Origin: Nitrospirales bacterium
Lineage (GTDB): Bacteria > Nitrospirota > Nitrospiria > Nitrospirales > UBA8639
Reading direction: 5' to 3'
Assembly: GCA_963555755.3 (NCBI GenBank)
Contig: OY820905.2
Coordinates: forward strand, 4,064,001 to 4,128,000
DNA length: 64,000 nt
Positions 5,488 to 64,000 of the stretch are shown here, in pieces (position 1 is the stretch's first letter; each line of letters starts with the position of its first letter). The notes under the pieces are model-generated. The model saw nothing but the letters and a program-made list of their open reading frames with translations. It did not search any database and was not told the origin of the DNA. The translations under genes were made by a program, and so were the position numbers.

Positions 5488-5702
5488 CCAAGAAATACCA
5501 TTTGGATCACAAAAGTCCGCGCCAGCTCTTGGCGAAATACAAAACTGTCTCCTCACCACCAGGGATGACTTTCGATCCTTCCACCCTTGTCATTTCTACC
5601 AAGGGTCGAAATGACAGACCCGAGGTGGCCACGACTTTTTGTATTTCACCATGCACACCAATATCTTCCACGTCTTTTTTGTGCCCAACTGCCGATTCTA
5701 GG
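5488..5702 (+). mobile_element. MITE family C (CCTAG-ended, IS1380-like), degenerate, with nested REP-like insert
   Basis: Aligns to 61069..61231; ~58-bp insert at the TCACC..GGTG hairpin. Confidence 0.75.
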
Positions 5703-8532: not shown

Positions 8533-8691
8533 GGGTCTGTCACGAAATAACCCGTACAATTGGGAGGCCCATCTTTGGCCCGGGGCGGCGTTGCTCCTCG
8601 GTCACAGAGCCCCGCTCTGCTCCCTCGTCGCGCCTTGCCCCGATCACAAATCTGGGCCTCCCAATTGTCCCGGTTATTTCGTGACGGACCC
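8533..8691. mobile_element. MITE family F (long TIR GGGTC.GTCACGAAATAACC)
   Basis: ~38-bp imperfect inverted ends; one end recurs near 52546. Confidence 0.7.
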
Positions 8692-8694
8692 TTA

Positions 8695-8973
8695 GCGCAT
8701 CTGGCACAATACAAAAATGTCTTATCACCACGGAGGGTTCGCGCAAGAATACCTTCCCCGGTTTGGGTGCTGAGACACCTGTCTGGCAAGGCGCGAGGAC
8801 TGCGCATACTCCTCGTATGGAAAGGACGAGCAACGCCGCCAGGCGGGATGGATCGACGCCCAAACCGGGGAAGGTATTTTTGCGCGAACCCTAAGGTGAC
8901 CACGACTTTTTGTATTTCACCATGCACCCCAATATCTTACACGGCTTTTTTGCGCCCAACTGCCGTTTCTAGG
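8695..8973 (+). mobile_element. MITE family C, left-truncated, interrupted by MITE G
   Basis: Flanks align to 61069..61231; ends in ccaactgccgtttctagg. Confidence 0.75.
8734..8892. mobile_element. MITE family G nested in a family C copy
   Basis: TIR agggttcgcgcaa.aataccttccccggtttggg and its reverse complement. Confidence 0.75.
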
Positions 8974-8974
8974 T

Positions 8975-9742
8975 TTATTGCGGGCGAGTCCGCTCCCAGT
9001 ATTCCCTCAGGGCTTCTGCGGCTGCCCCGTCTTGGTAGACAACCCGAAGAATCAGGTTTCCGAATGGACGACGCACAATTTTAAGAATGACTGATCCGTC
9101 GGCAAACCCTATGATCAATTCGTTGTCCGTGCCTTCCTGAAATCTGGTGTCTTCTGATTCGGTTGGCACGTGGCTGACGGGGTATTGTGACACCAGGGTT
9201 TCATACAGTTCTCCAAACAATTCTCTGGTGTGGTTGCCCATGTCGATATCGATTTTGGTGAGTTCTGCCGTTGGGGAGGGGGGAGATTTCGTGGTGCTGT
9301 TTGACTCATTCGCACCATAGGTCAGGGCGAAATAACGATTTTTCCCTAAGAGGTCATAGAGGCACTCTGTGTTGCTCGAACAGCCTTGAAGCGCTTCCAC
9401 TTCGCGGGGGGTCATGCCCAATTTCAATTTTCCAAATCCCTCAATGGTGTTGGCTTGGGTTAAAGCTGTCCCTCCCAACGCGACCATGAAGGGTATCAGG
9501 ACAAGTGAACACACCACTCTGGTCACGCGCTGTACGGGCCTGTTGAATATTTCACTCCAATGGCCAATAAAAGCTCCAGATGAGTCTCGTATCGTCAATG
9601 GGGGGGGATGTTCAAAAAAGTCCGTCCAGCAAGGCCGCAGCCCTTTTGACGCGCGGAGCGTACTCATAGTACGTGAGCACGGCAAAATGGCGAGAACGCC
9701 GCTGGCGGCTTTTTTCAACATTCCCTGTACGGATGCAAACAT
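8975..9742 (-). CDS. Exported hypothetical protein with in-frame MITE in its signal peptide
   Basis: RBS gaaagga before ATG 9742. Removing the MITE restores MFASVQRVTRVVCSLVLIPFMVALGGTALTQA. Confidence 0.7.
   Translation of the reverse strand: MFASVQGMLKKAASGVLAILPCSRTMSTLRASKGLRPCWTDFFEHPPPLTIRDSSGAFIGHWSEIFNRPVQRVTRVVCSLVLIPFMVALGGTALTQANTIEGFGKLKLGMTPREVEALQGCSSNTECLYDLLGKNRYFALTYGANESNSTTKSPPSPTAELTKIDIDMGNHTRELFGELYETLVSQYPVSHVPTESEDTRFQEGTDNELIIGFADGSVILKIVRRPFGNLILRVVYQDGAAAEALREYWERTRPQ
9536..9725 (-). mobile_element. MITE family A, extended 190-bp form, 5-bp TSD TGTAC
   Basis: TGTAC at 9531-9535 and 9726-9730; ends GGGCCTGTTGAA / TTCAACATTCCC. Confidence 0.85.
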
Positions 9743-52707: not shown

Positions 52708-52967
52708 ATTAATATGAAACTACTTCAAAGTGGTGTGATGTGTGGTTCCCGGCCAGAAGAAAAAAAACGTTGCTAGTCGCTGAGCACTAAGGAGTTCTTT
52801 TTCTTCACAAGCAACTAGGGACAAACTGGAGACTAGCCGATCATGAGCCAAGCAGAAAATATAGAGACCACCGGACGGATGCCCGCTTAAACCCTGGGGG
52901 CATGACGACAGGGGCGAGAAACGAAATACGAGATACGAACGACGGGATGCGAACCAGGGGAGTGCCC

Positions 52968-54765
52968 ATGAACAAACGAATCTTAGTCATCGACGATAAC
53001 AAGGCTATTCATGAGGATTTTCGGAAAATCCTCTGCACTAGTAAGAGCACCGCCAAATTGGGTGACTTAGAATCGGAGTTGTTTGAAGAGGCGGAGTCGG
53101 GGGCTCACCAAGAGGGTTTTGAGTTGGAGTCTGCCGATCAAGGACAAGCCGGGTGGGAACTGGTCAAGACAGCGGTGCAGGAAGATCGCCCGTTTGCCGT
53201 CGCCTTTGTGGATATGCGGATGCCGCCTGGATGGGATGGCGTGGATACGATCGAACATATTTGGCAGATCGACCCCGAGATGCAGATCGTCATCTGCACG
53301 GCCTATTCGGATCTTGCCTGGGAAGATGTCATGCGTCGGTTAGGGAACATGGACAAGCTGCTGATTCTTCGAAAGCCTTTTGACAACATTGAGGTGCAGC
53401 AACTGGCCACAGCCCTGTCACAAAAATGGGATCTCGCCAAGGAAGGGCGTGAACTGCTCACTGAACTGGAGCGGCGAGTCAGGCTGCGAACGGGTCAGTT
53501 ATGCGAGAAAAATGAAGAACTGGTTCGCTCCAATCAGGAGCTACAGCAGTTTGCCCAAATTGCCTCGCATGATCTCCAGGAACCCTTGCGGAAAATTCAA
53601 ACCTTTGGCGATCGACTCCGCACCAAATGTGGGGACGGCCTCGATGAGGTGGGGAAAGATTATCTGGGCCGGATGCAAGGTGCCGCGGAGCGCATGCAAA
53701 CACTCATTCAGGATTTATTAAGCTATGCACGAGTCACGAGCAAGGGACAGCCCTTTCAGTCTGTTGACCTTCAGAACATTGTCCAAGGCGTGTTGTCGGA
53801 TTTGGAGATACGTCTGGAGACCACGGGGGGGCGGGTGAATATGGACGCACTTCCCCGTATCGAGGCAGATCCACTGCAAATGCGCCAATTGTTTCAGAAC
53901 CTCATCGGGAATGCGTTGAAATATCACAAACCGAATGTGCCGCCGATTGTCAAAGTATCGGCCCAGCCCATTGAGGGAAATCTGAACCTGTCCCCAGAAG
54001 CGTCGACGGGGGAGCGGTGTTGGCAGATCGTGGTGGAAGACAATGGGATTGGCTTTGAGCAAGAATACGAAGAACGCATTTTTGCCATGTTTCAGCGGCT
54101 TCATGGTCGGGGTGAGTACGAAGGCACGGGCGTGGGACTTGCCATCTGCCGAAAAATCATTGAACGACATGGAGGAACGATTACCGCCAAAGGCGTGCCT
54201 GAACAAGGCTCAACGTTCACCATCACCTTCCCCGTGCAACACGCGCAGGAAGAATTAGCAGCGGTGCTTCAACAGTGGCTTCCACTGGCTCTTGAAGAAT
54301 TGGACCGTGTGGAGGGGGACTCGTTAGGGGTGAATGCTGAGGATAAAGGTTCTGCGCCATCCGATTTGGCTTCACCGATTTCATCCACGATCCTTGAGGA
54401 TGATCCTGATCCTCCTTTGGATCGAGCGGTCTTAGCCGACCTTCGGAAATTGGGTGGGGATGAAGATCCCGGGTTCCTCGATGCGATCATCGATCAATTT
54501 TTGCAGGATGCCCCTCGCCATGTTGAGGCCATTGAACAGGCAATGACGCAAGGAAATCCTGACGCGCTGATGAACGCAGCCCATTCGTTTAGGGGGGGGC
54601 GGAAACATGGGCGCCCAACCACTCGCCGCGTGGTGTTTGAAATTGGAAGAAATGGGTCGGCACGGGACGGTGGCTGGTTCGGATGTGGTGTTCTCCAAAA
54701 TAAAAAATGAGTGGAACCGTCTGGAAAAAGCTTTACAGACTGAAAAGACCAATCAGCTGGCCTGA
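52968..54765 (+). CDS. Hybrid REC-HisKA-HATPase-Hpt kinase, Hpt frameshifted at a G8 tract
   Basis: ASHDLQEPLR, NLIGNALKY, GTGVGL. Frame 0 stops at 54710; the shifted frame continues GNMGAQPLAAWCLKLE to TGA 54765. Confidence 0.85.
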
Positions 54766-55902: not shown

Positions 55903-57931
55903 GTGCGACCAGGCAAGGCTGGTCTGATGGGAAAGGAGGCTGCGAGGACTCTTTGAAAATCAGTTCATGGTCCAGTGGGTGCAAAACCCACCCAACCAAA
56001 GCGGAGCCCGGCAGGGTGGTAGCAAGCCTTGCGCCAGCGCGGGTAACCGTTATGGCGATGCGTAGGCATGCGAGCGTATGGGCCGCAGGAAATGCAGCCT
56101 CGAAAAGTGGAATATCCTGGATGTCTAGGGGCTCGGAATCTCTGAAGACCACGGCGTCGTCGCCGGTATGGGGCAAGGCGGCGGGGCATCCGGCGGGGTG
56201 AACGACTGGGGCACGTACGAAGAGGATGATCCAGGAACCTGGGAGGCCCTCATTTCTCCCTGGGAGATACCCGGTGCCACGGGGACCCGGTGACCACTCT
56301 CCGACGAACACGCGGACGCGGGTGCCTGCGTGACTCGGTGTAGAACAAGCACTCGCCTCAGGGTAGGCCGACGGCAAGGGGAACCGGAGCTGCGGCTGAG
56401 GGGGATGAGGGAGTCGGAGGGCGGCATAGGAGCGACAACGTCGGGGAACGGGGTGGTGCCTGGACCGGACCGAGCAAAGGCTGCCCGTGTTGATAGGAAC
56501 GTCAGGAGGGAACCATGACCAAGGCATTGATGTGGGATTCCATGTCACCGGAACTTTTGACGGTAGCGGAACGAGCGAAACGGGAACCCGAAGGACGATG
56601 TCACGCCTTGGCCCATCTCATCGATGTGCCAGCTCTGACACGCGCCTACCGACGACTCCGCAGGAATGCCGCGGTAGGTGTGGATGGTATCACCAAGGAG
56701 CAGTATGGGCAGGAGCTGGAGCGGAATCTCCAGGATCTGCATCACCGGCTGAAGACGAAGCGGTATCGTCATCAACCGATTCTCCGGGGATATGTGCCAA
56801 AGGGGCAGGGTCGGCACAGGCCGATTGGGATATCGGCGACAGAGGACAAAGTGGTCCAAGGGGCGCTGCGGGACGTATGGGAGGCCATATACGAGACGGA
56901 GGTTACCGATAGCTCGTATGGGTTTCGACCGAAACGCGGTGCGCATGACGCGCTTCGGACTTTGAACCGAGCGGGGCATGGTGGGGAAATGAACTGGATC
57001 GTGGAGGCGGACATCGTCTCGTACTTTGACAGCTTGGATCGCACCAAGCTGAAGGAGATGATTCAGAAACGGGTCGCCGATGGGGCGCTCATGCGGCTCA
57101 TTGGCAAATGCTTGAATGTGGGCGTGCTGGACGGCGAGGTGTATTCCGAGCCGGACGTGGGCACGGCCCAAGGCTCGGTCCTCTCCCCGCTCCTCGGGAA
57201 CATCTACCTCCATTACGTGCTCGATCTCTGGGTAGAATCCGAAGTGAAGCCACACCTCCGGGGGAAGTGCATCTTCGTCCGGTATTGTGATGACTTCATC
57301 TTTGGTTTCGAATGCCAGGACGATGCGGAGTGGGTGATGCTGCTGCTGGGAAAGCGGATGGGAACATATGGACTGACCCTGCATCCGGACAAGACTCGCC
57401 TGTTGTACTTTGGGCGACCGTTCAAGGGGCAGCAGGCAGGCAAGGGGCCGGCCAGTTTCGATTTCCTCGGGTTCACGCTGTAGTGGAAGCGGTCCCGATA
57501 TGGACGCTGGATCTTGGCATTCAAGACCCGAGGTGCACGCCTCACGCGGGCCATTCGGTCTGTGTACGACCGGTGCCGACGCCATCGGCACCGGTCGGTG
57601 AAGGAGCAGCACATGGCGCTCGTGAGGCACGTGCGCGGCCACATGAACTATTTTGGCGTGAACGGGAATATCCGTAGCCTGCATCTTCTTCTGGTGCAGG
57701 TTCAACGTGCCTGGTTCAAGTGGCTTCGGCGTCGCAGCCAACGGACGCGCCTCACGTGGGAGAGGTATCAGGACCTGTTACGGGACTTTCCTCTTCCCCG
57801 TCCACGGATCGTCGTCCAGATCTGGGGGCGGTAACCCGCGAGCCATATCAGCGGAGGAGCCGGATGGTCGAAATGTCCTTGTCCGGTTCTGGCGAGGGCC
57901 TCGGCTGGGTGACTGGCCGGGGCTACTCTAC
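55903..57931 (+). mobile_element. Group II intron
   Basis: 5' GTGCG; domain V GAGCCGGATG..GTCCGGTTC; domain VI ending TACTCTAC; internal RT ORF. Confidence 0.93.
56515..57834 (+). pseudogene. ltrA: Group II intron RT/maturase with amber stop at 57481, no endonuclease domain
   Basis: RPIGI, SYGFRP, ADIVSYFD, GTAQGSVLSPLLGNIYL, YCDD, FLGF*; the maturase continues in frame. Confidence 0.9.
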
Positions 57932-58849: not shown

Positions 58850-61800
58850 ATGCTGTATGTGATTACGGGGCCTCTGTATTCTGACCTTGAAGACGCGTTA
58901 GCCAACCATCTCCAATCGTTTCGATCTCATTCCCCAATTGCTCCTCTAACCATTGCCGTGCCTTCTGAGTTTGTCCGACTTCGTCTGCAATGGGCATTGT
59001 GTGCCGAACGGGACCTGTCACTCTTTAACGTCCATCTCTTGACCTTTTTTCAGGTAGCGCTGCGTGTGGTAGAAGAGCAAGGGCCACCCGTAGCCTGTGC
59101 GTTTCGATCGGACAGTTTTTTTCGTGAATGGATTCACCACCTCTTACAGCGGCGAAAGGCTCTGGTGCCAGATTTGGCACGGCTCATCGATATGCCGGGA
59201 GCATGGGCGGCCTTGTGGAACACCATCAAAGATTTGAAGGATGGCTCAGTGGATGCGGTGTTCGCTCGTGAAGCTCTGAAGCAAACCGTCCACGAACACG
59301 ATCCCGTTTGCCAATCTGTCTTGAAACTGTACGATTGGTATCGCCAAGAACAGCAGCAACGACAGGCTGTTGACTGTGATGATGTGGCCAGAATCGCCAG
59401 CGCGGGCGTGGCGTCTTCGACCTTTCTCTCCCAACAGGCACACATCTGGTATTACGGTTTTTACGACCTGACTCAGGTACAACTGGATCTCTTTCATGCC
59501 ATTGCCCAGACCTATCCGACCACGGTGTATTTTCCCGTTGTCCGGGATCACCCGGCCTATCACTTTGCCCAGCAATTTTTTGATCGACATCTCCTCGGAT
59601 TGAGCGCTGGAAGGATTCAGTCTCTTTCAGGTTCTGGCGAGAGCTCTCCTCTCCGGGCGCTCTTTACGAAGAATGGTTCAGGAATTCAGAGCACACGACT
59701 CAACAGTGAGGAGCCAGAGGTTGCGCCTAGTCAGGAGAAGTTTCTGCCGGTTTGCCAGATCATTCACGTGTCCGGAGCAGATGATGAGATGACGGTCGTG
59801 GCTAAAGAAATTTTACGGTACGCGGAAGACCATCAAGTGCCTTGGCATGAAATCGGTGTGGTGGGACGAACGTTGTCGGGCTATGAACGTCTCCTGCCTC
59901 GCGTCTTTCGGGAGCATGGGATTCCGTTTAACACCACCATGCAGCGATCAATTGCCGAGTTCCCCTTTGTTCAAGCCCTGTTGAGGCTTCTCATGCTTCC
60001 GGTCTCACACTTCCAGCGTGATCACGTCATGGATGTTCTCACGTCACCCTGTTTCCGATGGGCTGCGCGTGGTCTTGATGGTGACTCCCCACGGCCCGAT
60101 CTTTGGGATCGCGTGAGTCGGCGGCTAGGCATTACCAAGGGGCGTGACGAATGGGCTCGGTTTATCCGGGTGTTGAAAAAAGAAGGTGGGAAGCATGAAG
60201 GCCGACAGAACGCGTTGAACCCGAATACAATATCCCACGAACAGATTCACGCTTGTGAACATACCCTGCGAGTGTTGTTCGATGCGTTAAACCGGGTTCC
60301 ACAACGCGCCTCCTATGATGTGTTTGTTGATCATGCCTTGAAACTGGTGGAAGAATTTTTCGTTCCGTCCCACCCTGAGCTCCACAGGAAGTTGCCTACT
60401 TTCAATATCTGGAACGAGTTCGATTCAACCGATCGAGGTCACACAGACGACCCGGTGATCTCTCAAGCGGTCTACGATCAATTCGCAGAGATTCGAATGC
60501 TGAGTCAGATCTCCGACGAGGTGTCCTTTTCGGAATTTGTTGAAACGGTCGAGCGATTCATGCAGGGCGCCACGGTGCCGCTGCATCCAACCACTGACAT
60601 CATTGATGGTGTGTGGGCGTTGGATGCCATGGCCGCACGGGGTTTTTCTTTTCGTGTGTTGTTTGTTGTGGGAGTCAACGAGCATGTCTTTCCGCGACAC
60701 ATTCGAGAAGATGCATTTCTGCGTGATCCGGTACGCCGATTTTTGGATGTGAATTTGGGATTCAAAATGTCGGAGAAAGCCTCAGCCTACGAAGAAGAGC
60801 AACTGTTATTTTATCTATTAATCAATTCAGCCAGTGAGGCCGTGACGCTGTTGACGCAACGTTCCAGTCAACAGGATCGGTCATCCATTCCGTCCTGGTA
60901 TGTGGCCGAGGTGCAACGCTGTGTTGGCGATCTTCCTATTACGGTCGTTCCCAAACGGGGAAGCGAGAAGCGCCGGGTCTTGCCTCAGTATGCGGATACA
61001 TGGCTGACCCCACAGGAGATGCGGGTGCAGTGGCTGTTGGATCATCGTCTCCCCCGTGTCCCCTTCAACCTAGAAACAGCAGTTGGATCACAAAAGTCCG
61101 CGCAAGATCTTGGCGCACCTGGCAAAATAAAAAAAGGTCTCATCACCACCGAGGTGACCACGAAATTTTTTATTTCACCATGCACACCAATATCTCACAC
61201 ATCTGTTTTGCGCCCAACTGCCGTTTCTAGGTTCAATCGTGATGCCCTGGGGTGGGCTATTGTTCAAGGAGGTATTGCCGCGCTTGCCTGTCATGAATCT
61301 TCCTCTCCGCAGTTAAATCGTTTTGACGGATTAACCGGGAGTTTGTCTGAGTGTTGGGAGGACATGCAAAGACGAGGGATGTCCCCAACCGCTCTTGAGC
61401 ATTATGCGCTTTGTCCCTTTAAATTTTTTGCCAAACAGATTCTCAGGTTGGAAGCTATCGGGCTGCCTGAATTAGGTTCTGGAATCGGACCGCGTGAAGC
61501 CGGCAATCTGTTGCATTCCGTGTTGCGGGACGGTGTGGTGGCGTTAGTCGCCCAGGATGCCTTTCGAAATTCGCAGGAGTCCGCTCGTGCTGATGTCGCT
61601 GGAATCGTGAAGCAGGTGACTGATCGGGTGTTCCGCAACTATGAGCAGTGGGCCCCAACCGGATATCCCTTGCTTTGGGAACTGCAACAGGAACAGCTTT
61701 GTGGTGTGGCCAGTCAGGTCATTCTCCAGGATCTTTTTGATGGGGAGGGAGATTGGATGCCCGTTGGGTTTGAGGAAGCTGTGACAGGTGAGATGACCGT

Positions 61801-62395
61801 GATGCTGGGACATGAACCACACCAGATACCCCTTGTCGGTCGAATCGATCGCGTGGATTGGTCGGCTTCGCAACAACAGTCTCGCATCATCGATTACAAG
61901 TACAAAATGTCGGCACGATCCATTCCGACTTCTCAGGCTCTTGCTCGTGAGGTGGTTCGCGGTAAACAGCTGCAACCGCCGCTGTATTTGATATTGGCTG
62001 AAGGTGGAAATCTGTCTGTCTCGCGAATGATAAACCGTGAACCTGACGAAACCCCTTCTTGTGCGGGTGTGTGGTTATATTTCATCACGCCAAATACTTC
62101 GGAATCCGCAGGGCCACTCACGCGCGTGGCGTTCACCCAAGAGATGTGGAAATCGTTGAAGCCGCAATTTGAGACGACCATGAATGTCGTGCTTGGCGGC
62201 ATCCAACGTGGGAAGTATTTCATCGTGCCTGGAAACCATTGTGAGATGTGTGACTATCGCACCATCTGTCATCGCACGCATCCCATGAGTCGCTGGCGTG
62301 CCAAGGCTGATCGGGTGCAAACCAAGGGGCATCGAGATATCCGTTTTATCAAACCGGAAAAATTGTCGGAGTCAGGCAAGGCAGCATCAAAATAA
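58850..62395 (+). CDS. addB: AddB-like PD-(D/E)XK nuclease subunit
   Basis: YGFYDLT, MSPTALEHYALCPFKFF, GRIDRVD, IIDYK, QPPLY, C-terminal CEMCDYRTIC; upstream of a UvrD-type helicase. Confidence 0.85.
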   Translation: MLYVITGPLYSDLEDALANHLQSFRSHSPIAPLTIAVPSEFVRLRLQWALCAERDLSLFNVHLLTFFQVALRVVEEQGPPVACAFRSDSFFREWIHHLLQRRKALVPDLARLIDMPGAWAALWNTIKDLKDGSVDAVFAREALKQTVHEHDPVCQSVLKLYDWYRQEQQQRQAVDCDDVARIASAGVASSTFLSQQAHIWYYGFYDLTQVQLDLFHAIAQTYPTTVYFPVVRDHPAYHFAQQFFDRHLLGLSAGRIQSLSGSGESSPLRALFTKNGSGIQSTRLNSEEPEVAPSQEKFLPVCQIIHVSGADDEMTVVAKEILRYAEDHQVPWHEIGVVGRTLSGYERLLPRVFREHGIPFNTTMQRSIAEFPFVQALLRLLMLPVSHFQRDHVMDVLTSPCFRWAARGLDGDSPRPDLWDRVSRRLGITKGRDEWARFIRVLKKEGGKHEGRQNALNPNTISHEQIHACEHTLRVLFDALNRVPQRASYDVFVDHALKLVEEFFVPSHPELHRKLPTFNIWNEFDSTDRGHTDDPVISQAVYDQFAEIRMLSQISDEVSFSEFVETVERFMQGATVPLHPTTDIIDGVWALDAMAARGFSFRVLFVVGVNEHVFPRHIREDAFLRDPVRRFLDVNLGFKMSEKASAYEEEQLLFYLLINSASEAVTLLTQRSSQQDRSSIPSWYVAEVQRCVGDLPITVVPKRGSEKRRVLPQYADTWLTPQEMRVQWLLDHRLPRVPFNLETAVGSQKSAQDLGAPGKIKKGLITTEVTTKFFISPCTPISHTSVLRPTAVSRFNRDALGWAIVQGGIAALACHESSSPQLNRFDGLTGSLSECWEDMQRRGMSPTALEHYALCPFKFFAKQILRLEAIGLPELGSGIGPREAGNLLHSVLRDGVVALVAQDAFRNSQESARADVAGIVKQVTDRVFRNYEQWAPTGYPLLWELQQEQLCGVASQVILQDLFDGEGDWMPVGFEEAVTGEMTVMLGHEPHQIPLVGRIDRVDWSASQQQSRIIDYKYKMSARSIPTSQALAREVVRGKQLQPPLYLILAEGGNLSVSRMINREPDETPSCAGVWLYFITPNTSESAGPLTRVAFTQEMWKSLKPQFETTMNVVLGGIQRGKYFIVPGNHCEMCDYRTICHRTHPMSRWRAKADRVQTKGHRDIRFIKPEKLSESGKAASK
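61069..61231 (+). mobile_element. MITE family C, intact (163 bp), TSD TTCAA, in frame in addB
   Basis: TIR CCTAGAAAC.GCAGTTGG; TTCAA at 61064-61068 and 61232-61236. Confidence 0.92.
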
Positions 62396-64000
62396 TGAAT
62401 CAACCTCTCGCGGATCAATCAGCCCGTGAACGCGCCGCCACGGCTGCGGATGTGAATATCGTCGTGACCGCTGGTGCTGGAACAGGCAAGACGACCCTCC
62501 TCATTGACCGTCTGACCCACTTGTTGTTGCGGCCTCGTGATCGGGTCACACTCAACCAGATCGTGGCCTTGACCTTCACGAATAAAGCGGCCAGTGAAAT
62601 GAAGTTGCGGCTTCGGCAACGCCTCCTGGTGATGCAAGAACTCAGCCGGGGAGGATCCAATCACGCGGAACCCTTACGCTATGAAGCCCGAGTCATCAGA
62701 GATCTCCAAGCCTTGTATGGTCTGACCGATCAACAAGTGGCGGATGTCGCCGAGCAGACGCTCTATGATGTAGAACGTGCTCATCTCGAAACCATCCATA
62801 GCTTTGCGGCATACGTGCTGCGGTTGTTTCCGGTCGAGGCTGGTGTTGATCCGTCGTTTCAAGAGGATGATGGCACGCAGTTCAACGCCCATTTTCATCG
62901 GGAATGGACTCGGTGGTTGGATCATGAATTAGACAAGGCTAGTCCCAATCGTGAAATCTGGCGCGCCATTTTACAGTTGGTCAGTCTTGATGATTTGCAA
63001 ACTTTTGCTCGGGCCTTGATGGATGAATTTATTCCACTGACAAGCCTGGCCACATTACACATGGCAGATGCGTTTCCACACGTGGTTCGAACCTGGATCA
63101 GTGGGTTGATCGAAACGGCACGGGATTTACGAACCGCTCACCCGAAGGATCAAACACTCGAGACGATGTTGGACGATGCGATCGTTCAACTGAATGCGCT
63201 CACTCGAGACGGTCAGACAGAAAAGAGTGAGGAGGGGTCCCGGCTCACTCGACCGATTCCCGCGCAGACGAAGTCTTGGTCAGATGAAGACTATGAACAG
63301 GCTCGATCCATTCTGAAAGTGGCACGCGCGAGTCAAAATCCGATCCCGAAACCCTTGTGGGATTTTCTAGGCCTCTTGTTCCCCTTTGTCGAAGAATGCC
63401 AACGGACATTTCTCAAGGCCGGCTGGCTGTCGTTTAACGGGCTCTTAACCAAGGCACGGGACCTGCTTCGTGATTCGCCACGGGTACGACGAGAAATCAA
63501 ACAGCAATTCCACGCGATTTTGGTTGATGAGTTTCAGGATACGGACCCGGTTCAATACGAACTGATTTTGTACTTGGCCGAAGACTCGAAATACGATGCA
63601 CGTGCGTGGTCGCAGGTCCGGTTGGCGCCGGGCAAGCTCTTCATTGTGGGCGATCCCAAACAATCGATTTATGCGTTTCGACGAGCGGATATCGAAGCCT
63701 ATGATTCCGTCATTCATGATCTCGTGTTGGGCCAAGCAACCAGCGGAGAACAACTGACCTTGCGCAGTAATTTTCGCTCTCATGCAGGTGTGCTAGAGCC
63801 TGTAAATGCGTGCTGTCGGAAGTGGTTTCCCCACGAGGCGGTCAAGGGGGTTCAGCCTCGGTATGAAGATCTCTTGCCGGTTGAATCAGAATCCGTACCC
63901 TCCCAGGATGAAGGTGTGCAAGTCCGATTAGTGCGATTTCTTGAAGATACCGTGGATACCGAGGCCGCCACTCGCGCCGAGGCGCAGGAGCTCGCTCGCT
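62395..64000 (+). CDS. addA: AddA-like UvrD helicase/nuclease (runs off the window)
   Basis: ATG overlaps the addB stop; TAGAGTGKT, ALTFTNKAA, LVDEFQDT, VGDPKQSIYAFR. Confidence 0.9.
   Translation, partial: MNQPLADQSARERAATAADVNIVVTAGAGTGKTTLLIDRLTHLLLRPRDRVTLNQIVALTFTNKAASEMKLRLRQRLLVMQELSRGGSNHAEPLRYEARVIRDLQALYGLTDQQVADVAEQTLYDVERAHLETIHSFAAYVLRLFPVEAGVDPSFQEDDGTQFNAHFHREWTRWLDHELDKASPNREIWRAILQLVSLDDLQTFARALMDEFIPLTSLATLHMADAFPHVVRTWISGLIETARDLRTAHPKDQTLETMLDDAIVQLNALTRDGQTEKSEEGSRLTRPIPAQTKSWSDEDYEQARSILKVARASQNPIPKPLWDFLGLLFPFVEECQRTFLKAGWLSFNGLLTKARDLLRDSPRVRREIKQQFHAILVDEFQDTDPVQYELILYLAEDSKYDARAWSQVRLAPGKLFIVGDPKQSIYAFRRADIEAYDSVIHDLVLGQATSGEQLTLRSNFRSHAGVLEPVNACCRKWFPHEAVKGVQPRYEDLLPVESESVPSQDEGVQVRLVRFLEDTVDTEAATRAEAQELAR

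What the first reader, a model, noticed from the sequence alone, without database searches (positions are those of the whole stretch)
61064..61236. IS1380-like MITE inserted in frame in addB (+56 aa)
Seen: 163 bp plus TSD TTCAA = 168 bp with no stop, just before the nuclease domain; the same family is intergenic at 5488 and 8695. Known: CCTAG ends with a 5-bp AT-rich TSD typify ISEcp1/IS1380. With the 9536 case, two MITE families show element-plus-TSD lengths divisible by three. Inference: a route to protein innovation in a core repair gene.
Basis: partly seen in the sequence, partly recalled or inferred. Interest (0 to 1): 0.7.

Follow-up and report, generated by a model that had tools for sequence, protein, structure and literature searches.

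The report
Jumping DNA adds loop to AddB
A 163-base mobile DNA element sits in frame inside the DNA-repair gene addB of this one strain, adding 56 amino acids that are predicted to form a floppy, likely tolerated loop; such in-frame insertions are already known from Rickettsia and other bacteria.

Summary
None of 117 aligned homologues has it. Neither do 14 of 14 other listed members of its protein cluster. Five runs from five other studies show the empty site. It is therefore strain-level, not fixed in the species.

The IS1380 link is supported. Elements of about 1.6 kb with a ~520-aa IS1380-type transposase share the ends and WTNAW target. This genome keeps only a remnant of that transposase.

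AlphaFold puts the insert in a coil between two helices, at low confidence. Nuclease and Fe-S residues are intact.

Innovation is not shown. The same family breaks 5 genes, against 1-2 in-frame cases. I found no protein-level selection on the peptide, and expression is unproven.

The 163-bp hairpin recurs across phyla with covarying pairs. The scan noted similar elements on other DNA before.

Verdict: a clean new example of a known kind.

The parts
61064..61068 (+). Left copy of the 5-bp target-site duplication (TTCAA; family consensus WTNAW), in phase 0 of addB
61069..61231 (+). 163-bp MITE with IS1380-type ends; long imperfect hairpin; stop-free only in the addB frame
61069..61086 (+). Left terminal inverted repeat (18 bp); its TAG closes one of the two other + frames
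   Evidence: sequence
61214..61231 (-). Right terminal inverted repeat (17 of 18 identical to the left); its TAG closes the remaining + frame
   Evidence: sequence
61232..61236 (+). Right copy of the target-site duplication
58850..62395 (+). addB-like gene, 1181 aa (1125 aa in conspecific empty alleles); insert = residues 739-794 or, equivalently, 741-796
61379..62272 (+). PD-(D/E)XK nuclease domain (residues 844-1141) with E975, D1000, D1015, K1017, Q1042, Y1046 and Fe-S cysteines 855, 1131, 1134, 1140 intact
62395..64000 (+). addA-like helicase gene, start overlapping the addB stop by one base; 1161 aa, same length as conspecific copies, runs past the window
5488..5702 (+). Degenerate intergenic copy of the same family (215 bp, internal insert, 2 TSD mismatches)
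8691..8973 (+). Partial intergenic copy, matching from element position 41 on, with a nested element
9538..9724 (.). Second MITE family: 187 bp + 8-bp TSD = 65 codons, in frame after codon 6 of the minus-strand ORF ending at 8975

Best explanation
A non-autonomous 163-bp MITE sits in frame in addB of this strain, likely moved there by an IS1380-type transposase working in trans, and it likely survives as a near-neutral passenger because the 56 added residues are predicted to form a disordered loop.

Steps:
(1) Shown: the element's ends and WTNAW 5-bp target match autonomous 1.6-kb IS1380-type elements. Inferred: such an enzyme moved it.
(2) Shown: 163+5 = 168 bases, and TAG in each end closes all but one frame per strand. 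The forward frame is open in 46 of 48 copies. An insertion therefore keeps a gene whole only if it lands in phase 0 and (nearly always) in the forward orientation, as here.
(3) Shown: conspecific sequences carry the empty site, so the event is strain-level.
(4) Predicted: the site is a 13-residue coil between two helices of the linker before the Fe-S nuclease domain, and the rest of AddB folds as before.
(5) Inferred: AddAB still works, perhaps slightly worse. In a gene this important, only an in-frame insertion would be seen, so this is survivor bias rather than invention of a function.
For: Empty alleles: 23 of 24 loci; 117 of 117 homologues; 14 of 14 other listed cluster members, 97.2-98.1% identical; joint 'skips 168' in X8, X9, X10, X11, X15.

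Mobility: 154 elements, 89 with an exact TSD; 16 of 48 163-bp copies have an identical twin.

Cognate elements: 1624-1673 bp, with matching ends and mostly exact WTNAW TSDs. Their transposase passes the PF13701 cut-off.

Structure: insert pLDDT below 50 between helices 721-731 and 799-816, mean pLDDT 84.4. The empty allele has a coil at 731-743. The best fold match is AddB of AddAB, E 2e-38. The site is variable in sequence, and 2 of 117 homologues carry +3 or +5 residues in the segment.

Catalytic and Fe-S residues are intact. addA is full length. No RecC match was found in this 99%-complete genome.

No selection on the peptide. Coding sites are strongly under-represented among insertions: 24 of 154 against 816 of 1500 random TTNAA sites.

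Precedent: RPE-bearing guanylate kinase is active with altered affinity (PMC2229807, passages).
Against: Low pLDDT is expected for any segment without aligned homologues, so disorder is not independently shown.

The segment length is tightly kept (48 residues in 109 of 117 homologues), which suggests the site is not freely expandable. In the B. subtilis structure the Fe-S cluster lies near this linker and the AddA interface (PMC3321194, passages).

AddB and AddA of this genome carry about twice as many private amino-acid changes as most conspecific copies.

No intact cognate transposase was found in this genome. No close donor copy exists: the nearest differs at 10 of 163 bases.

No RNA contig bridges the insert.
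Confidence: 0.68

Rival explanations
1. The insertion damages AddAB, by disturbing the linker or Fe-S region or by making the mRNA a target through a 173-nt hairpin. It persists only because selection is weak in this transposon-rich, possibly bottlenecked strain.
For: Segment length is conserved in 109 of 117 homologues. The hairpin is -57.4 kcal/mol, z -7.05. Private amino-acid changes: AddB 0.98% against 0.18-0.53% in 6 conspecifics; AddA 0.78% against 0.15-0.52% in 8 of 9. The genome holds many IS families, some at about 40 copies. The filled allele was not seen outside runs that may be the source.
Against: None of the 10 private AddB changes falls on an invariant or nearly invariant column. 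addB and addA have no stop or frameshift. The excess of changes is shared with AddA and may be a lineage effect or reflect metagenome consensus masking. The one neutral control gene was uninformative (1 change in 501). No terminator-like site.
Confidence: 0.2
2. The 163-bp class is built to preserve frames. Element lineages whose length plus TSD is a multiple of three and whose one available frame is stop-free do less harm in genes and so outlast others; addB is one product of that design. This concerns the element and can be true together with the best explanation.
For: 55 of 92 TSD-bearing metagenome elements of 148-178 bp are exactly 163 bp. 19 diverse copies align without gaps. 10 of 15 sequence clusters have an open frame, against 2.4 expected from interior shuffles. 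Interior stops among 9 lineage representatives are 2, 20 and 18 in the three forward frames. Neutral-mutation null: P = 0.003. A further in-frame case lies in a 780-aa ORF.
Against: With column-preserving shuffles the stop deficit is not significant (P = 0.10 and 0.14). pN/pS is 0.87 in the open frame against 0.87-1.07 in the other five, and codon positions diverge alike. Within this genome 1 stop-creating change was seen against 3.5 expected, P = 0.08. Lineages are related, so the counts overstate. The 234- and 237-bp classes with the same ends are not frame-preserving. Only 1 of 43 copies from other genomes and metagenomes was in frame.
Confidence: 0.2
3. The added peptide gives AddB a new or improved property.
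For: The insert is retained in a core repair gene. 9 of its 10 differences from the family consensus change an amino acid, one removing a cysteine.
Against: Only 2 of those 10 differences are private to this copy. The allele is confined to one strain. No Pfam match for the peptide. The other two in-frame cases examined in this genome lie near the N-terminus, ahead of a predicted signal-peptide core, and would likely be cleaved off. The 2007 review states that no improvement of an enzyme by such a fusion had been shown (PMC2229807, passages).
Confidence: 0.06
4. Assembly artefact: a repeat was wrongly threaded into addB.
For: The element is a high-copy repeat, and other studies show only the empty site.
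Against: Runs X1 and X5 contain both junctions at full flank depth with 0 differences and no skipping joint. This copy is unique, 10 or more differences from every other 163-bp copy, and it has an exact TSD.
Confidence: 0.02

Closest known systems
Rickettsia palindromic elements (RPE; Ogata et al. 2000, 2002, seen only as passages of the reviews PMC10969869 and PMC2229807)
   Same: Hairpin of about 150 bp with an open frame, found in frame inside conserved genes; described as neutral or slightly harmful in the one enzyme tested.
   Different: Nearly half of RPEs are in genes (PMC10969869). Here 1-2 of 154 copies are in frame and at least 5 break genes. This element has a clear 5-bp TSD and an identifiable transposase family, while the RPE TSD is listed as unknown. 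The insertion is strain-level. No sequence comparison with RPE was run.
IS1380-family insertion sequences (IS1247: 1672 bp, 16/13-bp IR, 5-bp DR in PMC3281130 Table 2; ISEcp1)
   Same: Shares 16-bp ends and the 5-bp AT-rich target with 1624-1673-bp elements whose transposase matches PF13701 and NF033539.
   Different: Non-autonomous, and I saw no likeness to those elements beyond the first ~16-19 bases (first 45 bases compared). The cognate transposase scores 118.9 bits on NF033539, under the cut-off of 180. That ISEcp1 ends in CCTAG is recalled, not tested. The 436-aa IS1380 of this genome has other ends.
YPAL/RU-2 of Yersinia (PMC2759123, passages and Table 1b)
   Same: About 168 bp with a 56-codon open frame, fused to ORFs, in some cases contributing to signal peptides.
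   Different: The printed sequence has unrelated ends (compared by eye); the equal length looks coincidental.
Bacillus subtilis AddAB (PDB 3u44, 4ceh; PMC3321194)
   Same: Same fold (E 2e-38, TM 0.70) and same nuclease motifs and four Fe-S cysteines; gene order addB-addA.
   Different: 15% identity, below the curated TIGR02773 cut-off. The insert maps roughly to B. subtilis AddB 730-745 by a low-confidence part of the profile alignment.

Membership tests
MITE | Short, no transposase, terminal inverted repeats | tested here: met
   163 bp, 17/18 TIR, no Pfam match
MITE | Target-site duplication and an empty site in relatives | tested here: met
MITE | Multiple dispersed copies and a stable stem-loop | tested here: met
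   154 elements, 48 of 163 bp; z -7.05
IS1380-mobilised element | Ends shared with an autonomous element encoding an IS1380-family DDE transposase | tested here: met
   Elements of 1624-1673 bp in G002, G120, G127, G204, G229 and L188; PF13701 58.2 bits over cut-off 34.7; NF033539 E 2e-34 but under its cut-off
IS1380-mobilised element | 5-bp AT-rich direct repeat, same target preference as the autonomous element | tested here: met
   MITE WTNAW in 87 exact TSDs; autonomous copies ATGAT, ATAAA, TTCAT, TAAAT, ATAAT, ATCAA, TTGAA, CTGAA
IS1380-mobilised element | Intact cognate transposase in the same genome | tested here: not met
   Only a 3' remnant at C1:562136-562474; the 7 full 436-aa IS1380 copies have different ends and targets
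IS1380-mobilised element | Mobilisation by that transposase shown experimentally | not testable with these tools
   needs a transposition assay
Rickettsia palindromic element | Palindromic element with an open frame inserted in frame in conserved genes (mode of action) | tested here: met
Rickettsia palindromic element | High share of copies inside genes | tested here: not met
   1-2 of 154 in frame; 24 of 154 in long ORFs against 816 of 1500 random sites
Rickettsia palindromic element | Sequence homology to RPE families | not tested
   no RPE sequence fetched; Rfam scan gave only three chance-level hits
AddB | Inactive UvrD-like N-terminal part plus C-terminal RecB-type nuclease, upstream of addA | tested here: met
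AddB | Four Fe-S cysteines and nuclease motif residues | tested here: met
   C855, C1131, C1134, C1140; E975, D1000, D1015, K1017, Q1042, Y1046, compared with PMC3321194
AddB | Expressed and active with the insert | tested here: inconclusive
   Run X17 (RNA library) has 6 short contigs identical to addB flanks at depth 2.9-4, none bridging the insert; DNA carry-over not excluded

The most novel reading that the evidence does not exclude
The 163-bp element is a cross-phylum, frame-preserving MITE design. Fixed length (56 codons with the TSD), a covarying hairpin and one stop-free frame are kept by selection on the element, so IS1380 transposases keep seeding 56-residue loops into core proteins in Nitrospirota, Chlamydiae, Proteobacteria and others. 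Filled and empty addB alleles in one species make the cost of such a loop directly testable.
Probability: 0.2. Interest if true: 0.65.

Novelty: new member of a known kind. Interest (0 to 1): 0.36.

Why it matters
In-frame MITE insertions are known, but RPEs lack an identified mobiliser and are mostly old. Here the element has identifiable IS1380-type parents, and the insertion is polymorphic within a species, in the only AddAB/RecBCD-type resection enzyme I found in the genome. Filled and empty alleles about 98% identical give a clean pair for measuring what a fresh 56-residue loop costs a repair machine. The wider observation, an exactly 163-bp covarying hairpin shared across phyla, asks what fixes that length: transposition geometry, RNA structure or reading frame. 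Practically, such inserts inflate protein lengths in annotation and are not lineage signatures.

Tried and rejected
1. The genome's own full-length IS1380 (7 copies, 436 aa) as the mobiliser: rejected, since ends and TSDs differ. None of 26 other repeat families whose ends I printed showed the MITE's ends as its own, and TIR pairs around long ORFs in this genome were other elements nested in MITEs.

2. Protein-level selection on the peptide: not found within the genome (30 synonymous changes against 32.3 expected) or across lineages.

3. Accelerated evolution of the addB copy: only 2 private changes; 8 of 48 copies are more isolated.

4. Known RNA family: three chance-level Rfam hits. Promoter or terminator in the insert region: none.

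5. Identity with YPAL/RU-2: ends differ.

6. The three 744-aa cluster members as truncations at the insertion site: they are N-terminally partial with the empty site.

7. Other apparent in-frame copies in this genome (1078435, 2737309, 1261837, 1199252, 3577278, 3998665) showed no evidence of lying inside a real gene. For the three scanned, no family spanned the site; the rest were judged by eye. No orthologue was checked for these six.

8. Relaxed selection on addB: inconclusive.

9. Expression: only contigs were available; X17 does not bridge the insert.

10. Viral-contig scan: 3 stretches, none of 163 bp.

11. No complex prediction was run, because AddA-AddB is a textbook pair and exceeds the size limit.

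12. Two papers were not held (De Gregorio 2006; Abergel 2006); what I say of them comes from the review passages. Searches listed no paper on this element family, but they cover open-access text only, and ISfinder could not be consulted. No supplements were read.

Full report
1. Observation. The element is exactly as described: TTCAA at 61064-61068, 163 bp from 61069 to 61231, and TTCAA again at 61232-61236, in phase 0 at codon 739 of the 1181-aa ORF 58850-62395. TAG in each end closes two of three frames on each strand, and this copy has a stop in the remaining reverse frame. The addB frame is thus the only open one. The host protein is AddB-like: PD-(D/E)XK domain at 844-1141, best structural match AddB of B. 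subtilis AddAB, E 2e-38, followed by an addA-like gene of 1161 aa. Named homologues are from Nitrospirales.

2. It is an insertion, and strain-level. 23 of 24 relatives' loci align with a gap of about 56 residues; L019 was left out because my script picked a wrong frame. G006 shows a single 5-mer at the site. In an alignment of 117 of the 120 listed homologues (428 found; three short ones left out), the segment is 46-53 residues, 48 in 109 of them, against 104 here. P0001 is 97.5% identical over 1125 positions with one 56-column gap. Of 28 cluster members, 15 were listed, and all 14 others lack the peptide. Runs X8, X9, X10 and X11 (4 of 4, four studies) and X15 show the joint 'skips 168', with flanks about 99% identical in the long pieces of X8-X11. 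Runs X1 and X5, which may be the source, show both junctions with no differences and no skip. Contigs drop rare variants, so a minor filled allele elsewhere is not excluded; in X10 the skipping contig has depth 23.7 against flanks near 40.

3. The family in this genome. I count 154 elements, 89 with an exact TSD; 48 are 163 bp and 13 are 40-bp end-to-end hairpins. The target consensus from 87 exact TSDs is WTNAW. 46 of 48 163-bp copies are open in the forward frame and 5 of 48 in the reverse. 16 of 48 have an identical twin, whereas the addB copy's nearest neighbour differs at 10 positions.

Insertions avoid coding DNA: 24 of 154 sites lie in long ORFs against 816 of 1500 random TTNAA sites, and 299 of those 816 are in phase 0. 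I scanned both halves of 11 of the 24 sites. A Pfam domain is split and the gene broken in 5: an ISL3 transposase, an IS5-type transposase, DUF1326, a carbamoyltransferase and a KAP NTPase. In frame are addB and probably a TonB-dependent receptor at C1:2294768, where the element follows codon 12 if the conserved Met is the start; G006 is empty there. One or two survivors against five or more breaks is about what phase and orientation alone would give (my estimate).

4. Mobiliser. The 7 full IS1380 copies here (436 aa) have other ends and targets. A pattern scan of GTDB found the same ends in many phyla and, in L188, a 1673-bp element with an exact TSD around a frameshifted transposase. Its pieces match the IS1380 model best, and its homologues are ~520-aa PF13701 proteins. 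In the window's phylum, 7 of 301 genomes match that clade at E up to 1e-30. In five of them the gene lies in 1624-1663-bp elements with near-identical 16-bp ends and WTNAW-type flanks, exact duplications in most copies. A representative passes the PF13701 cut-off but not the NF033539 cut-off. This genome has only a 3' remnant. IS1247, an IS1380 member, is 1672 bp with a 5-bp repeat (PMC3281130, table passage). Mobilisation in trans by this clade is inferred.

5. Structure. With the insert, mean pLDDT is 84.4 and residues 739-796 fall below 50, between helices 721-731 and 799-816. Without it, the site is a 13-residue coil of pLDDT about 62-65 between the same helices. Low confidence is expected for an unaligned segment, so disorder is predicted, not shown. 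All four Fe-S cysteines and six nuclease-motif residues are present, matching those named for B. subtilis AddB. That paper also places the cluster near this linker and the AddA interface (PMC3321194, passages). No RecC match was found in the genome, and the other PF12705 hits are addA and a 212-aa frame. The RNA hairpin is strong (-57.4 kcal/mol, z -7.05), with no terminator-like site.

Against simple neutrality: the segment length is well conserved, and both AddB and AddA carry about twice the private changes of most conspecific copies. None of the AddB changes lies on a conserved column. Expression is unproven: RNA run X17 has six short identical contigs on the flanks and none across the insert.

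6. Is divisibility by three designed? In this genome 79 of 121 copies, but only 20 of 41 distinct lengths, are frame-compatible. Related copies occur in 12 of 41 genomes searched, counting this one. 19 diverse copies align without gaps, and 23 of 41 predicted pairs have compensatory changes. All five measures exceed 500 of 500 shuffles and every slid control; hairpin-driven self-repair could also produce this.

An open frame is common: 10 of 15 clusters against 2.4 expected, and P = 0.003 under a neutral-mutation null. But it is not significant once column composition is kept (P = 0.10, 0.14), there is no pN/pS signal, and the 234- and 237-bp classes with the same ends are not frame-compatible. 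Only 1 of 43 outside copies was in frame. I read the open frame as mostly an inherited by-product of conserved DNA structure, with weak element-level selection not excluded.

7. Comparison. In-frame MITE fusions are established for RPE, ERIC, YPAL/RU-2 and Correia elements (PMC10969869 passages; PMC2229807 passages; PMC2759123 passages). The one enzyme tested, RPE-bearing guanylate kinase, stayed active with changed affinity. This element works like an RPE but is not shown to be one. It is a MITE with IS1380-type ends. Five literature searches listed no description of this family (listings only, open-access text only). Earlier notes of this scan report IS1380-type in-frame MITEs in other genomes, including a 163-bp one in a chlamydia-like genome; these are unchecked AI notes, not support.

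8. Verdict. The finding is real and precisely described, and the IS1380 link holds. It is best explained as a tolerated, strain-level passenger loop (0.68), with damage (0.2) and innovation (0.06) as rivals. It is a new member of a known kind; interest 0.36.

Noticed in passing
G000:C1, 13 sites such as 1261837-1261876 and 4582175-4582214: 40-bp minimal elements made of the two terminal repeats only; 40+5 is also a multiple of three. They may be collapsed MITEs.
   Followed up: partly
G000:C1:2294768-2294930 (L043): Second probable in-frame copy, near the N-terminus of a TonB-dependent receptor ahead of the predicted signal-peptide core; empty in G006.
   Followed up: yes
window 9538-9724: Second MITE family (187 bp + 8-bp TSD) in frame after codon 6 of a predicted exported protein; its hairpin core has about 170 near-full-length matches in the genome.
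   Followed up: partly
L253:1501-1663: A chlamydial-type 163-bp copy in frame in a 780-aa ORF without Pfam match.
   Followed up: partly
L109-L224 (GTDB pattern scan): The same ends bound preferred length classes of 163 and 234-237 bp in Proteobacteria, Chlamydiae, Verrucomicrobia, Acidobacteria, Magnetococcales, Nitrospirota and Nitrospinota. The step of about 72 bp is near seven helical turns, which may reflect transposition geometry (inference).
   Followed up: partly
G000:C1, many sites: The MITE is a frequent landing site for other elements: nested inserts give classes of 322-937 bp, and full IS elements sit inside some copies.
   Followed up: no
window 56515-57834: Reverse-transcriptase (RVT_1) ORF of 322 aa followed by a separate 106-aa ORF; looks like a split group II intron-type gene just upstream of addB (family name recalled).
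   Followed up: no
window 52902-54710: Hybrid response regulator / histidine kinase whose Hpt match covers only profile positions 2-39 of 84, suggesting a frameshift near the 3' end.
   Followed up: no
G000:C1:562136-562474: 3' remnant of the cognate ~520-aa IS1380-type transposase with one intact end; the only trace found in this genome.
   Followed up: yes
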